Positions 27,001-60,000 of a stretch of DNA of 64,000 nucleotides are shown here, piece after piece (within the stretch, counting starts at the first letter, position 1; each line of letters begins with the position of its first letter). The position numbers are program-made. Origin of the DNA: Perna viridis (Eukaryota); the NCBI GenBank assembly GCA_037379345.1, contig CM074512.1, positions 11,470,001 to 11,534,000 on the forward strand, given 5' to 3'.

Positions 27001-30000
27001 ATCAAGGTAAGTTTAGAAACAAGAAACAGACATATTTTTTCACTGTTTCTATGAGTTACCTACTTTTAGCCTTTTCTTTGTCTTTCATTTCAGGAACCTC
27101 TTTAAACAGTATATTTTTCAGAGTAGGTTTTGGAACATTCTGGTGAATCATAGGGTTGGCATCGTCATCAGAGATCAAAGCTTCGATAGAGTGTGGTAAA
27201 TCCTTCATTATGTTCTCTGAGATATCACCAACTATCTGGTCATTACTCTTGTCGCTCCTGGAGGTGAATGGAAACAGAAAAAAGTTAGATCAAAAAGCAG
27301 TTACTGAACATTCATGAACTGTCAAATGTTCATCTTTGCCATTCCTCACTTCATTCAACAAAATCTTACATGTAAATATCAATTAACACAAGATATAAAT
27401 GTTACCACATAAAATTTTCTAATTTTTATTTAGTATTTAAAATACTTTGATGCAAGGGACGATATGGAACACTGCAATGTAATAATCTTTTCAATATCAC
27501 ATATTTTAATCATTACAAAAATCTCTACATGATTACTTCAAGTCATATTTGAATGAAATTTCTTAATTAAATAACACTATAACAATAAAGTTGAAAATGA
27601 TAGCACTTTCTGTATATCCATTACACCCTTCATTTCATGCATTATAAAGCTAAGACATTGTTGCTTTATGCAGATAATTGGACTGTCTGTGGAAATTTTG
27701 TAATACATGACGGGCAGAGGGGTTTCTTAACGCCCTTGGCTGTCATTTGGGGTCTCTCACACATGGTGTAAAGCATTGAAGCATTTACACAGTCCCCGGG
27801 CATAGTCATACCCATGAATGTGGGTCATGGTGTATTCGGGGAAATTAGGTGTCATGTGACCATGTTCATTCATTAAATGCATTACCACATAATTTAATGT
27901 CGATCTGTGACCTAGTGATCCAATTTGTAATCTGTACCTACAGCATTTGCTGAACCTTTGTCTCAGCAAAATACTTTTTGGGATAAAATTAACACTTTCA
28001 AGTGCACGTAGGACAGAAAGGTAGGTCAACTTAATGGTGCATGCCAGTCAATTGATGAGAAATCTCGAAGGCCGAAAAAATAATGTTAAGTTTTCAATCA
28101 TTGTTCTAAAATTTAGTTGGGTCAGTAGATAGAGATTTATTTTTATTTAAAATTTCTAAAATGGAATAAGTCATAGTGACACCAAACTTATAATACAATG
28201 AACCAAATATGCAAAAACTAATAGACTTAGTCCATGGCCTAATCACTTTTGTGATTCGGCGCTTGAGGTATTTTTTGTTTTGACGGTGGTGGTCACTCAC
28301 GGCATGTGTGTTTACAATCGAATCTAAATATACAACCAATATTTCTCCTTCTTTTTCCATCTAGGATAGAAAAAAACATCTACGGCTTTATTTTTTTACT
28401 TTTTTTTCTGAAAGACATTTGGCAGACTTTATCTTATTTTTTTTCAAAATAACAAATAAAAACTTTCGGAAAAGGGGTCTGAAGGAGGGGCAGTAGGGTG
28501 ACTGGAAATATAACATATTTTTAGGCCTAATAGGATGGTCTATTTATTACTCCAGCAGTGCTAGAGGTTGTCTGGCAAGCTATTTCTTATGAACAAATTA
28601 TTTGAATTATAATCAGAATGTTACTATCTTTATGGATGACATTACCATTGATAATGGGCTGATATGGATAATGTTGCCTTTGATGACCAGCCAAGAATTA
28701 GTTATCAGTCTGAGCCTAATATTAGCTTACAACTTATCAAAGGAACAAAAATGTCGATATCACTTTCAAATATATGATAATGAAAATTTTTAAGCAGAGA
28801 GATCAGTTGAAAATGTACCCAACAATACATTCAAACATGTGTGAACAAATTATAGTAAACATGTAAATTGATGTATTCAGGTATCCCATTGACTTGATTG
28901 GTAAGTCATTGCTGGTCATATCTCTGTCATGTCTTCAAATAGAAGAACTTTGGACTTCTGACAACCTTTATAAATAAGTGTGAAAAATTTAACAGCCTTG
29001 GTTGTATACTAATTATAGGGAGAGGTGTAATAGCTGAATCTTATCCCATGACATAACAGCCTAGATTATACACAGTCTAAAATGACATGTGACAAAAGAC
29101 CTTTACCCCATATAAAGGGAGACATGTGACAACAGAACCTTATCCCATGTTGCCTAGTTTGTACACAGACTAAAGGAAGACATGTAACAATAAAATTTTA
29201 CTCTATAGAACCTTACCCCATGATATTCAGGGTCAGCCTTTTTTGTACACAAACTAAATGGGAACATGTGAAAACAGAACCTTAACCCATGATATCCAGG
29301 GTCAGCCTTTTTTATACACAACCTAAATGAGAACAGGTGACAACAGAACCTTACCCCAGGATATCCAGGGACAACCTTGGCTGTACACTGACTATAGTTT
29401 CTATCATTTCTTCAGCCTGCATGATCCTACAAGCTCTCTCAGCATTCTCTGTCATCCCAAACACAGCAGGAGAATCATAGCTTGGTAATGTCTCTAGGTA
29501 TGTCACAATATTAGAGAAAGGTTGATTTGTTTTCAGAGGACGATATATCTGCAATGATTTAACTTATTTTCAGACAGTTATTTACAAGTGTGCAAATACT
29601 ATGGTTAAAAAGTAACGTGTAATGTTAGAAAGGAATTAAATTAAATTTTCTAATTATAACAAGTGAAGCGTATATTAAAATTGGCTCCAATTTTATCACA
29701 TACATATGGGAACCTAAAAGAAAATGTACACCAATTGTAGGAAATAAGTAAGTAGTTACAAATTGACCTACAAAGTGCATGGTTCCAATACAGGTAAAGA
29801 AAAAACAGCTACAATTTTTCAGTAAAAGATACAAAAGGTGACAAAGTGATGACCCCTTCATCAAAATGCTTCTTTCGACAGACAAATTTGAAATTTAGAC
29901 AAAAGATAATTTTTTTTTATTTTATGTCAGGATAAATTTTGAAAGACAAAAAAGAAAACAATAATGATCAAGCTAACTAAACACTACGTTTTCCTAAAAA

Positions 30001-57000: not shown

Positions 57001-60000
57001 TTAAAACCTTCAAATATGTGTAGGAAAATATTATTAACATACACTAAACCATGGATATTTATAGTCAGTGATAGTAACATTGTAACATCATTAATGACTG
57101 ATAATCAGCAAAACATATATCATACAGTAAAATCCAATCTCTTTACCTGGTTCTATAGTTACAACCATTGAGAATGAAAAATTATGTTCTCTTTTAATAT
57201 TCTACAACAAAGGGAAGATATGATGTTCAATATTGAAAAACAATGATTTAAGTAAGAACCAAGAAAAGATCAATTTGTGTAAGATTTATGAATCACAAAA
57301 ATAGATAACAGACAGTATATAAATGTGAGAACTTGAGAATAAATAATACAAAGTTTTACCATACAATGGCTACAGAGGTTCTTACCTTTAGATCATAACT
57401 TTTATCAGCTATAAATTCAGCATTTTCAAAGAAAACTTCTGCTACACTCAACATGGCTTCTTCCTCCCATTCATCATACCAATCAATTGTACAACAGTTG
57501 ACAAATGCTGGATTCATACGGCATCTTTGTCGGAACTTACCACCTGCAGGGCTTAGTGTTAATACAATATGTAGATTCCTCGTGACACGACTGATGAAGA
57601 ATTGGTAGACAGAATCTTTAGTATCAGGAATATCAGCCTGTGCTGCTGCTTGTTTCAGTTCCATACGAATAGCATCTTGTTCTTCATGGTCAAACAAGTC
57701 TGGTACCTCTCCAGAGTTCAGTATACAGTTAATATCCTCTAGGAAAGACTCCTGTCAATACACAAATATATATGGTCTCGTCAAGATGCAATTCAACAGT
57801 AGTCAGTAGGAATACTATCCACCCTTCCCTATACTCACCTCAACAAAATCTGCATCAGACTGTAAGAATACTTTACCCCTACCCACCATATACTAACCTA
57901 AACAATATTCATCAGTCAGTAGGAATACTATCCCATACCCTTATTTACTTTAACAATATCAGCATCAGTCAGTAGGAATACTAACCCCTCTGCTATAATA
58001 ATCTTGACAGTATCAGCATCAGTCAGTAGAAATACTATCAACTCCTCTATAGTTACCTTAACTATATCTGCATCAGTCAATAGGAATACTAACCCCTCCC
58101 CTATAATTACCTTAACAGTATCAGCATCAGTCAGCAGGAATACTATGCCATACCCTATAATTACCTAAACAATATCCATCAGTCAGTAGGAATACTATCC
58201 CCTCCCCTATAATTACCTTAACCATATCAACATCAGTCAGCAGGAATATTTACCCTTTCCTAATAATTACCTTAACAATATCAGCATTAGTCAGTAGGAA
58301 TACTATCCCCTCCCCTATAATTACTTTAATAATATCAGCGTCAGTCAGTAGGAATACTGTCCCCTCCCCTATAGTTACCTTAACAACATCAGCATCAGTC
58401 AGTAGAAATACTATCTCCTCCCTAATACTAACTTTAACAATATCAGCATCAGTCTGTAAGAATACTTCACCCTACCCATCCTATACTAACCTCAACAATA
58501 TGTGTATCAGTCAGTAGGAATAATATCCCATATCCTTTATTTACTTTTACAACATCTATGTCAGTCAGTAGGAATACTATCCACTCCCCTATAATTACCT
58601 TAACAGGATCAGCATCAGTCAGTAAGAATACTAACCCCTCCCCTATAGTTACCATAACAATATCCATCAGTCAGTAGGAATACTTTCCCTCCCCTATAGC
58701 TACCTTAACAATATCTGCATCAGTCAGTAGGAATACTATTCTAGTATCCTTAACACCACTCAATTGAAACACTGTCTTTAGATCATCTCTAAACTCAGAT
58801 GTACCATAACCACGATGTAGTGATAACTTAAACAGCTCACATCCTGATATATGGCTGGCTAACTGTACAACTGTCTGTTTACCTGTTCCATCTAAACCAA
58901 CCTGTAAAACATAAGATAGTTATCACACATACCTGATTAAAACAAAGCTTCATCTGAACCTAAATTAAATCAAGCTTTATTGGCCTATACAAAAATGAAT
59001 GTATATGTATAGGACTATTATTCCAAAGGTACCATAGCTTTGTTGGTGTTATCAAACAATCAATTTTAATTTCCAAACAAATGCAAAATTTCTGATAAAA
59101 AATTGACGAATGCTAAAACCCACAAATTCAAAACTGCATGAATCAATAAAATTTTGACTAACAATGTAAACTGATACTCACAAATAAATGTTTCTTTTAT
59201 GTGGAATAACTCATACAACTTCCACATAATGAAGACTTTTGTAAGTATTTTTAGAACAATCAAACAGTCCTTACTTTTTTATACTCTGACATGCTGGATT
59301 GGAACTCCAAGCCAACCAGTCCCCATTCTATTGCAGAAATTTTGTGATTCATTACTCTATTCCATGCTTGGTAGAAAAGCAGTGACTTTGGTGTCTATGA
59401 CTATGCTGTAACTTTGCCAGGGATCCAACCCCCAATATACAACACTCATCATACAACTTCAACCAAATGAAGACTTTTTGTTGGTGTAAATGATTACCTC
59501 CATCTTTTACAACTATTTCCCCTTGATGGAAAGAATTTAGAGTAAATTCTATTTAAATTTTTCATAAAAAAATGACTTGATATCCAAAAATTTTGGGAAA
59601 AGGTGATTTTTATGATGAGAGATCTAGTTAAAACCTTGAATTAAAATATCAAATGTAGGTTGTCAGAAAACACAACCAGCTCATGTAAGCTTTTTCATTA
59701 TCTAAACTATTATCAGGTAACTCCAAGGATGTTGAAACACATTAGCAGTCCTAGTAAACCTTTTTACTTACCATTTCCAGGTGACCTCCAGGTTGTCAAA
59801 AAACAAGTGCAGCTCTTGTAAAATGTTTTTCTTACCATTTTCAAATGACTTCCAGATTGTTAGAACACAGGAGCAGCCTTAGAAATCTATTTTACTTACC
59901 ATTATCATGTGACCTCCAGGCTGTCGGAACACACGAGCAGCTCTGGTTACATGTTCTACTGCATCTTTAAAGAATACCATCTGACTAGCCTATAAAATAT

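What the first reader, a model, noticed from the sequence alone, without database searches (positions are those of the whole stretch)
29030..59945. Recurrent 'donor-echo' arrays: five dynein exons are each followed by tandem copies of their own 3' end plus 5' splice site
Seen in sequence: exons ending at 59900, 58704, 43932, 41915 and 29355 (- strand) are each followed in the downstream intron by 1 to ~17 tandem copies of a unit made of the last ~35-80 nt of the exon, the GT donor and a few intronic bases. Copies tend to be more degenerate further from the exon. The five units are unrelated to each other, so these are independent events with the same geometry in 5 of 33 introns. Inference: duplications spanning a donor leave the reading frame intact, so they survive and seed minisatellites. 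The result is arrays of decoy donors that could tune splicing or NMD, or supply raw material for exon extension and intron gain. I do not know of this being described as a systematic class.
Basis: partly seen in the sequence, partly recalled or inferred. Interest (0 to 1): 0.65.

Follow-up and report, generated by a model that had tools for sequence, protein, structure and literature searches.

The report
Minisatellites that repeat splice donors
Five introns of a mussel-like dynein gene begin with tandem copies of the preceding exon's end plus its splice donor, an arrangement already described in several human genes and probably a tolerated by-product of tandem duplication.

Summary
The window is bivalve DNA (32% GC, no N) with a DNAH6-like axonemal dynein gene on the minus strand: 34 exons, 33 introns. 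Exons ending at 59900, 58704, 43932, 41915 and 29355 are each followed by tandem copies (2, 16, 2, 1 and 2) of a unit made of the exon's 3' end, the GT donor and 14-46 intron bases. The five units are unrelated. No acceptor has such an array (0 of 33), nor do 11 junction pairs of two other genes in the window.

Whether five is an excess depends on the null. Free placement of the arrays expects 3.0 (P=0.13). Counting only viable placements expects 0.40 (P=5e-5).

The geometry is not new. Borensztajn et al. 2006 describe minisatellites whose first monomer spans an exon-intron boundary in human F7, IFI6, CBS, LMNB2 and PDGF. They show in F7 that the most upstream donor is chosen.

Here many decoys score like real donors. 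All 22 tested would bring in an in-frame stop. Donor columns are no better conserved than the rest of the unit.

Best reading: tolerated duplications, not a dedicated device. Only the density in one gene and the donor/acceptor asymmetry may be new, and one window cannot settle that.

The parts
20401..63446 (-). Axonemal dynein heavy chain 6-like gene, C-terminal half: 34 exons and 33 introns in the window. The stop codon ends at 20401; the gene runs on beyond 63446.
   Evidence: The single-exon query 57356-57754 hits DNAH/DNAH6 proteins of molluscs. tblastn of P0003 (Mytilus coruscus DNAH) gives 33 exon HSPs at 70-100% identity. One further exon, 25081-24870, is found with other homologues. 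All 33 donors are GT and all 33 acceptors are AG.
59706..59960 (-). Donor-spanning array 1. The end of exon 59989-59900 (about 45 nt) plus ATG|GTAAGT plus about 19 intron nt, then 2 further copies with donors and 1 partial copy without one. Period 64.
   Evidence: TRF; sequence. Probe hits at 74.4, 78.6 and 72.0% identity. Decoy donor PWM scores are 7.14 and 8.26, against 8.26 for the real donor.
57801..58739 (-). Donor-spanning array 2. The last 35-36 nt of exon 58901-58704 (coding IVFLLTDADIVK) plus AAG|GTAGCT plus about 19 intron nt, then 16 further copies. Period 54, with a higher-order period of 268.
   Evidence: TRF; sequence. 16 junction-spanning hits at 77.7-91.9% identity. 17 units were segmented and aligned. 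15 of 16 decoys keep GT. In-register decoy scores run 5.65-10.29, against 8.42 for the real donor.
43723..44008 (-). Donor-spanning array 3. The last 76 nt of exon 44053-43932 plus CAG|GTAATA plus 17 intron nt, then 2 further copies. Period 93. Copy 2 has GC in place of GT.
   Evidence: TRF; sequence. Hits at 88.8 and 86.1% identity. The third copy appears as a secondary tblastn HSP, 43821-43735. Exon-derived parts were compared.
41824..41973 (-). Donor-spanning array 4. About 46 nt of the end of exon 42044-41915 plus CAG|GTGAGT plus about 20 intron nt, then 1 further copy. Period 66.
   Evidence: TRF; sequence. Hit at 80% identity. The decoy CAG|GTGAGA scores 8.91, against 10.03 for the real donor.
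29069..29378 (-). Donor-spanning array 5. About 23 nt of the end of exon 29548-29355 plus GGG|GTAAGG plus about 46 intron nt, then 2 further copies and 2 copies of the intron part only. Period 69.
   Evidence: TRF 29207-29378; sequence. Hits at 83.8, 82.0, 77.3 and 77.3% identity. The donor is disrupted in copy 2. Copy 3 has the identical 9-mer, score 8.67.
43078..43146 (-). Dispersed, non-tandem copy of the last ~70 nt of intron 14 with its CAG|GA acceptor. It lies inside intron 15, about 975 nt downstream of the true acceptor at 44053.
   Evidence: Self-blast: 43078-43146 against 44052-44123, 87.5% over 72 nt. In the alignment the homology stops 2-3 nt into the exon.

Best explanation
Each array is a minisatellite born from a tandem duplication whose unit began in the 3' end of a dynein exon and ended a few to about 46 bases into the intron. 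It therefore copied the 5' splice site. Array 2 later expanded by multi-unit duplication.

The arrays persist because they are invisible to the mRNA. The first copy is the real, conserved exon end. The spliceosome takes the most upstream donor, so all later copies are removed as intron. A duplication across an acceptor, or inside an exon, would change the mRNA and be lost. That would explain why only donors are hit.

The decoys have no dedicated function. If one is used by mistake, the transcript carries a premature stop.

Shown here: the geometry, the exon boundaries, the donor-like scores of the decoys, the stops, the lack of extra conservation at the donor columns, and the 5:0 asymmetry.
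Inferred: that the upstream donor is the one used in this animal, and that selection removes acceptor-side and exonic duplications.
Open: why five arrays occur where a neutral seeding model expects 0.4.
For: - Geometry and boundaries.
- The exon copies are ancestral dynein sequence. The same residues end at the same places in Mytilus coruscus and Tegillarca granosa proteins (GGHMIM|V.., DADIVK|ESFLE).
- The window is very rich in minisatellites. There are 39 TRF rows in 64 kb. The 16 arrays cover 11.9% of the gene, so raw material is plentiful.
- Junction-spanning copies occur at 5 of 33 donors and 0 of 33 acceptors. No array lies inside an exon.
- Decoys are donor-like. Only 1.0% of 2201 intronic GTs reach the median score of real donors, yet many in-register decoys do.
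- All 22 of 22 in-register decoys tested give an in-frame stop on read-through.
- There is no sign of selection on the decoys. Donor columns have majority frequency 0.83 against 0.87 for the rest. GT is kept in 15 of 16 copies, but 24 of 54 columns are equally conserved.
- Some decoys have lost the donor: E15 copy 2 has GC, the E27 copy 2 donor is disrupted, and E2 copy 14 has AT.
- Array 2 shows higher-order duplication: units c4-c6 resemble c15-c17, and TRF reports a period of 268.
- Published experiment: in human F7 IVS7 the pseudo-sites are functional but silent, because 5'->3' scanning picks the most upstream site (PMC1557585, abstract and passages).
Against: - A purely neutral seeding model predicts far fewer cases. 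It expects 0.40 arrays with a viable donor geometry, against 5 seen (P = 5e-5). Something beyond tolerance may act, whether a mutational bias or selection.
- The 11 purely intronic arrays also crowd the exon edges. Eight of 11 lie within 200 nt, against a null mean of 3.4 (P = 0.006). Plain tolerance does not predict this.
- The asymmetry alone is weak: two-sided 0.0625, and 0 acceptors is what the null expects anyway (0.41 expected, P(0) = 0.66).
- The RGS22-like and GPCR genes in the same window show none at 11 donor-side probes, so the pattern is not general even locally.
- No RNA data show which donor is used in this animal.
- In the IFI6 and CBS cases quoted in PMC1557585, the two pseudo-sites nearest the authentic donor are used as well, so decoys are not always silent.
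Confidence: 0.62

Rival explanations
1. Mutational hot spot. Tandem duplications arise preferentially at or near exon 3' ends and 5' splice sites, for example through stalled transcription or replication conflicts there. On this view the excess of donor-spanning arrays is a birth bias rather than only a survival filter. The decoys are still functionless.
For: Five arrays are seen against 0.40 expected under uniform seeding with viable geometry. The purely intronic arrays also sit near exon edges, on both sides: 8 of 11 within 200 nt, P = 0.006. In the RGS22-like gene, arrays start 27 and 49 nt after donors and end 10 nt before an acceptor.
Against: This is one gene, in a window picked for the pattern. 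There is no donor-spanning array at 11 donor-side probes of the other two genes. Under free placement five is not unusual (P = 0.13). The exon-anchored copy decays more slowly, which by itself could raise detectability by up to about two-fold (inference). The mechanism named is recalled and was not tested.
Confidence: 0.2
2. Selected decoys. The repeated donors, with the exonic enhancer sequence copied alongside them, bind U1 snRNP. They are kept because they help define the upstream exon, protect the long AT-rich intron from premature cleavage, or tune output through NMD.
For: Many decoys score as well as real donors. GT is kept in 15 of 16 copies of array 2. There is an excess over the neutral seeding model. 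In human IFI6 and CBS some pseudo-sites are used (PMC1557585 passage).
Against: Donor columns are not better conserved than the other columns (0.83 vs 0.87), and 24 of 54 columns are as conserved as GT. The donor is lost in one copy each of arrays 2, 3 and 5, and in the last partial copy of array 1. Every decoy tested would give a premature stop (22 of 22). There is no comparable array in the other two genes. No expression data are available.
Confidence: 0.1
3. Assembly artefact. The arrays are mis-assembled or duplicated reads rather than real genomic repeats.
For: Tandem arrays are prone to copy-number errors in assemblies (general knowledge).
Against: Copies differ from the exon copy by 7-28% and from each other, with indels and a higher-order pattern. 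Duplicated reads would not give that. There are five independent loci with unrelated units. The window has no N.
Confidence: 0.02

Closest known systems
[quoted passage not shown]
   Same: The first monomer holds the exon end and the authentic donor. Later monomers reiterate the donor as intronic pseudo-sites (PMC1557585, abstract and passages). The pseudo-sites are good donors by score, as they are here.
   Different: In F7 only 4 exon bases are in the unit, and the 5-9 copies carry donors identical in sequence. Here 23-76 exon bases are in the unit and the copies have diverged by 7-28%. In F7 silence of the decoys and polymorphism were shown by experiment; neither could be tested here.
Other human minisatellites whose first monomer spans a donor: IFI6 (6-16) intron 2, CBS intron 13, LMNB2, PDGF intron 4
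   Same: They are listed together in PMC1557585 as a recurring arrangement. Units run up to 81 bp (PDGF) and 100 bp (LMNB2), with 10-25 copies (passage). These sizes resemble the 54-93 bp units here.
   Different: There is one array per gene in those cases, against five in one gene here. I saw these cases only as quoted in PMC1557585. The original IFI6 paper (PMC306954) is not held.
Internal tandem repeats at exon-intron boundaries of human genes in segmental duplications (De Grassi and Ciccarelli 2009, PMC2812944)
   Same: This was a genome-scale screen with TRF. It found tandem repeats at exon-intron boundaries, with 27 intron modifications after manual checking (passages).
   Different: Those repeats vary between recent paralogues and are read as making new introns or alternative transcripts. 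Here the introns are pre-existing and the exon copy is ancestral. Their supplementary tables could not be seen.
Intron gain by tandem duplication of an exonic AGGT segment
   Same: A tandem duplication supplies extra splice signals without changing the coding sequence. This is my own knowledge, plus titles and abstract starts listed: PMC2891723, PMC4974935.
   Different: No new intron is created here. The duplicates lie downstream of an existing donor, inside introns of 952-2097 nt that run on to their own acceptors.

Membership tests
Minisatellite whose first monomer spans an exon-intron (donor) boundary (F7 / IFI6 / CBS / LMNB2 / PDGF type) | Head-to-tail array of two or more units of minisatellite size | tested here: met
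   TRF periods are 54-93 with 2.2-17.3 copies. The units of array 2 were aligned.
Minisatellite whose first monomer spans an exon-intron (donor) boundary (F7 / IFI6 / CBS / LMNB2 / PDGF type) | The first unit contains the authentic exon end and its 5' splice site | tested here: met
   Exon ends were set by protein homology and phase. In each array the exon overlap is shorter than one period.
Minisatellite whose first monomer spans an exon-intron (donor) boundary (F7 / IFI6 / CBS / LMNB2 / PDGF type) | [quoted passage not shown] | tested here: met
   In-register decoys score 4.4-10.3 on a PWM built from the gene's own 33 donors. A few copies have lost GT.
Minisatellite whose first monomer spans an exon-intron (donor) boundary (F7 / IFI6 / CBS / LMNB2 / PDGF type) | The most upstream site is the one used; the decoys are silent or minor | not testable with these tools
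   No transcript data are available. Indirect only: related proteins end the exon at the first donor, and use of any decoy would give a stop.
Minisatellite whose first monomer spans an exon-intron (donor) boundary (F7 / IFI6 / CBS / LMNB2 / PDGF type) | Copy number varies among individuals (VNTR) | not testable with these tools
   Only one haplotype is in hand, and no eukaryote DNA collection is available.
Intron gain by tandem duplication | The duplication creates a new intron bounded by duplicated splice signals | tested here: not met
   The arrays sit at the 5' end of long existing introns, and each intron ends at its own unduplicated acceptor.
Axonemal dynein heavy chain (DNAH6-like) gene | Exons encode dynein AAA and stalk/C-terminal regions collinear with known DNAH proteins | tested here: met
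   33 collinear HSPs to Mytilus coruscus DNAH residues 112-1996. The hits carry dynein Pfam domains and DNAH6 names.

The most novel reading that the evidence does not exclude
In minisatellite-rich bivalve genomes, donor-spanning arrays may be a systematically over-represented class, about ten-fold above neutral seeding, with acceptor-spanning arrays absent. Either 5' splice sites and exon 3' ends are hot spots for tandem duplication, or arrays of U1-binding decoys are favoured. The asymmetry would then be a genome-scale natural experiment showing that upstream-first donor choice holds outside mammals.
Probability: 0.18. Interest if true: 0.55.

Novelty: new member of a known kind. Interest (0 to 1): 0.3.

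Why it matters
As single cases these arrays are ordinary: the arrangement and the reason it is tolerated are in print for human genes.

Two things could matter if they hold genome-wide. The first is the density, five donors in one gene. The second is the clean donor/acceptor asymmetry. Together they could measure how strongly splice-site choice rules filter structural mutations. They could also show whether exon edges are hot spots for minisatellite birth in bivalves.

There is a practical point too. Such arrays plant strong decoy donors next to real ones, so they can mislead gene predictors in these genomes.

Tried and rejected
- Selection on decoy donors. Column conservation in the 17-unit alignment shows no excess at positions -3..+6.
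- Gradient of decay with distance from the exon. Not significant.
- Coding constraint on the decoys. In array 2, 25 changed codons are synonymous and 32 nonsynonymous, against 26% synonymous expected at random. The changes are shared by descent among copies (for example GCA to GCT), so I count this as inconclusive.
- Productive exon extension. Rejected: 22 of 22 read-throughs contain stops.
- Array-encoded peptides in public proteins. The 78-aa ORF through array 2 found nothing at E<=0.001 among proteins of 42-137 aa, and Pfam gave no family for an array ORF.
- Known RNA families and tRNA-derived elements. Rfam gave 0 matches at gathering score and ARAGORN found 0 genes in the whole window.
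- Lower TRF threshold (score 30). It gave 50 rows. Compared by eye with the exon table, none adds a junction-spanning array.
- Other genes in the window. The RGS22-like and GPCR genes have no junction-spanning local copies at 11 donor-side and 11 acceptor-side probes. The one hit across a probe centre is 35 nt, on the other strand, 14 kb away, E = 0.002, and I take it as chance.
- The GPCR exon-1 donor beside TRF array 46543-46580. That array starts 3-4 nt inside the intron and does not cross the junction.
- Literature. Six searches found the F7 paper and the segmental-duplication screen. They found no genome-wide comparison of donor-spanning against acceptor-spanning arrays, and nothing on bivalves. 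PMC4039745 and PMC3152781 were checked by term search and do not treat junction-spanning repeats, and neither does PMC10078293.
- Not possible. Orthologous introns of other mussels could not be compared, because no eukaryote DNA collection is on hand. I did not use genome contigs, which holds only bacteria and archaea.
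Full report
WHAT THE WINDOW IS. The 64-kb window has no N and is AT-rich, 29-34% GC. A single exon, 57356-57754 on the minus strand, hits mollusc dynein heavy chains. The best are Sinanodonta woodiana (82% identity), Tegillarca granosa (80%), Mytilus coruscus DNAH (93%) and Patella vulgata 'dynein axonemal heavy chain 6'. 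An exon of the plus-strand gene at 6771-6968 hits RGS22-like proteins of Mytilus species at 80-89%. I therefore take the window for a mytilid-like bivalve, not human.

GENE MODEL. tblastn of the M. coruscus DNAH protein gave 33 collinear exon HSPs from 63446 down to 20404. It also gave one secondary HSP at 43821-43735, which is a repeat copy. Phase-consistent GT/AG refinement resolved 28 of 32 neighbouring HSP pairs with no residue missing. The rest were set by eye, with other homologues that reveal an extra exon at 25081-24870. The result is 34 exons (5,892 nt) and 33 introns. All 33 donors are GT and all 33 acceptors are AG. The donor of exon 27257-27064 is the least certain.

THE OBSERVATION. 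TRF finds 39 rows in the window.
- 59762-59960: period 64, 3.1 copies.
- 57801-58739: period 54, 17.3 copies.
- 43723-44008: period 93, 3.1 copies.
- 41824-41973: period 66, 2.2 copies.
- 29207-29378: period 69, 2.5 copies.

Read on the minus strand, each exon end, its GT and 14-46 intron bases are repeated head to tail. Probes of 50 exon + 40 intron bases at every junction gave junction-spanning local copies at 5 of 33 donors. The counts are 2 plus a partial copy, 16, 2, 1, and 2 plus two copies of the intron part only. The same test at 33 acceptors gave no local tandem copy.

The five units share only 8-9 nt matches with E >= 0.058, so the events are independent. The exon copies are the ancestral ones. 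Tegillarca and M. coruscus proteins read straight on from ...GGHMIM and ...DADIVK into the next exon.

The 29355 unit holds only about 23 exon bases. The decay with distance is weak: rho = -0.21, p = 0.43 in the 17-unit array, and the short arrays show 74/79/72%, 89/86% and 84/82/77/77% identity.

IS FIVE MORE THAN CHANCE? The gene is crowded with minisatellites. Sixteen arrays cover 5,108 of 43,046 bases, or 11.9%.
- If the arrays are dropped anywhere in the gene, 3.0 of them cover a donor on average, and five or more occurs in 13% of trials.
- That null allows arrays to run through exons, which cannot survive. If only viable placements count (the first unit spans the donor and the rest stays in the intron), 0.40 are expected, and five or more occurs in 5e-5 of 20,000 trials.
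- For acceptors 0.41 are expected and zero is unremarkable (P = 0.66).
- The 5:0 split alone gives 0.0625 two-sided (all).

A lower TRF threshold adds only short-period arrays. By my comparison with the exon table, none of them crosses a junction. The RGS22-like gene and a nested GPCR gene add 11 donor-side and 11 acceptor-side probes with no junction-spanning local copy.

The window was picked because of this pattern, so these probabilities are not unbiased. A genome-wide count is needed and could not be run.

THE DECOYS. I built a position weight matrix from the gene's own 33 donors. Real donors score 8.36 +/- 2.15. The 2,201 intronic GTs average -0.56, and 1.0% of them reach the real median. 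In-register decoys score as follows:
- Array 1: 7.14 and 8.26 (real 8.26).
- Array 2: 5.65-10.29 for 15 copies (real 8.42).
- Array 3: 4.56 (real 7.03; copy 2 has GC).
- Array 4: 8.91 (real 10.03).
- Array 5: 8.67 (real 8.67; the copy 2 donor is disrupted).

Reading from each exon through to each of the 22 in-register decoys meets a stop codon in all 22. Six of the 22 would add a multiple of three bases. So use of a decoy would give a truncated or NMD-prone transcript, not an extended exon.

In the 17-unit alignment the donor columns (-3..+6) have mean majority frequency 0.83, against 0.87 for the other columns. GT is kept in 15 of 16 decoys, but 24 of 54 columns are equally conserved. That shows no selection either for or against the decoy donors. 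Units c4-c6 resemble c15-c17 and TRF sees a 268-nt period, so array 2 grew by multi-unit duplication.

Counts of synonymous against nonsynonymous changes in the exon-derived parts are confounded by shared descent, and I count them as inconclusive.

WHAT IS KNOWN. Borensztajn et al. [quoted passage not shown] They name:
- F7 intron 7: 37 bp, 5-9 copies.
- IFI6/6-16 intron 2: 25 pseudo-sites, the two nearest the authentic donor used.
- CBS intron 13: 15-20 repeats, two pseudo-sites used.
- LMNB2: 100 bp, 10-15 repeats, only the authentic site used.
- PDGF intron 4: 81 bp, 16-18 repeats.

De Grassi and Ciccarelli 2009 (PMC2812944, passages) screened human segmental duplications with TRF. They report tandem repeats at exon-intron boundaries, 27 intron modifications after manual checking.

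Six literature searches found no genome-wide donor-versus-acceptor comparison and nothing on bivalves. The library does not hold most subscription journals, so this is weak evidence that none exists. The original IFI6 paper is not held.

INTERPRETATION. The arrays belong to a known kind. The best-supported account is that they are tolerated by-products of frequent tandem duplication in a minisatellite-rich genome. Splicing filters them: a duplication across a donor leaves the first, authentic donor upstream and the mRNA unchanged, while one across an acceptor or inside an exon does not. The upstream-first rule was shown in mammals. Its use here is inferred.

The size of the excess over neutral seeding remains unexplained. 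So does the finding that the 11 purely intronic arrays also lie close to exon edges: 8 of 11 within 200 nt, null mean 3.4, P = 0.006. Both hint at a birth bias near exons, but they rest on one gene. A selected role for the decoys is not excluded, and nothing I could measure supports it.

NOT CHECKED.
- Transcripts: which donor is used, and any NMD effect.
- Polymorphism among individuals.
- Orthologous introns in other mussels.
- Genome-wide frequencies.

No eukaryote nucleotide collection was available. Rfam (0 matches), ARAGORN (0 genes), Pfam on an array ORF (none) and a protein search with an array ORF (none at E<=0.001 among proteins of 42-137 aa) gave no other identity for the arrays.

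Noticed in passing
window 31643-60368 (the 11 purely intronic arrays of the dynein gene): Arrays that do not touch a junction still crowd the exon edges. Eight of 11 lie within 200 nt of an exon and 4 within 50 nt, on both the donor and the acceptor side. Random placement within introns expects 3.4 (P = 0.006) and 1.07 (P = 0.016).
   Followed up: partly
window 43078-43146 vs 44052-44123: A non-tandem copy of the last ~70 nt of intron 14, including its acceptor (..tattatgtcag|ga), sits inside intron 15. It is 87.5% identical, and the homology stops 2-3 nt into the exon. It is the only acceptor 'echo' found, it is dispersed rather than tandem, and its origin is unexplained.
   Followed up: partly
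window 45769-46539 and about 47950-48340, + strand: A rhodopsin-family GPCR gene (Pfam 7tm_1, E = 7e-32 for the first ORF and 4e-4 for the second) is nested antisense in the 5.2-kb dynein intron 14. It appears to have one intron, which holds arrays 46543-46580 and 47005-47211.
   Followed up: partly
window 856-17099, + strand: An RGS22-like gene (80-89% to Mytilus spp. over one exon) converges on the dynein gene; the 3' ends are about 3.3 kb apart. Its large arrays come close to junctions without crossing them. 6995-7412 starts 27 nt after a donor, 16342-16528 starts 49 nt after a donor, and 8813-9671 fills most of a 945-nt intron and ends 10 nt before the acceptor.
   Followed up: partly
window 52583-54413: An array of 44-nt units (39.6 copies, also read as a 94-nt period) takes up 1,831 of the 2,275 nt of dynein intron 7. 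It begins 34 nt after the donor. No similarity to the neighbouring exon end was found.
   Followed up: partly
window 25081-24870, - strand: A dynein exon matched by fish, newt and Intoshia homologues is absent from the Mytilus coruscus DNAH record used for mapping. That may be a gap in that gene model or an alternative exon.
   Followed up: no
window 37121-37543, + strand: A 140-aa ORF in dynein intron 18 contains an ..RYIDD.. motif. That reminds me of reverse transcriptases (recalled), but Pfam gave no family at E <= 0.01.
   Followed up: partly
the five donor-spanning arrays: Four of the five periods are multiples of three (69, 66, 93, 54, but not 64), against 4 of the 11 other arrays in the gene (45, 21, 42, 54). 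The numbers are too small to mean much, and every decoy read-through has a stop.
   Followed up: partly
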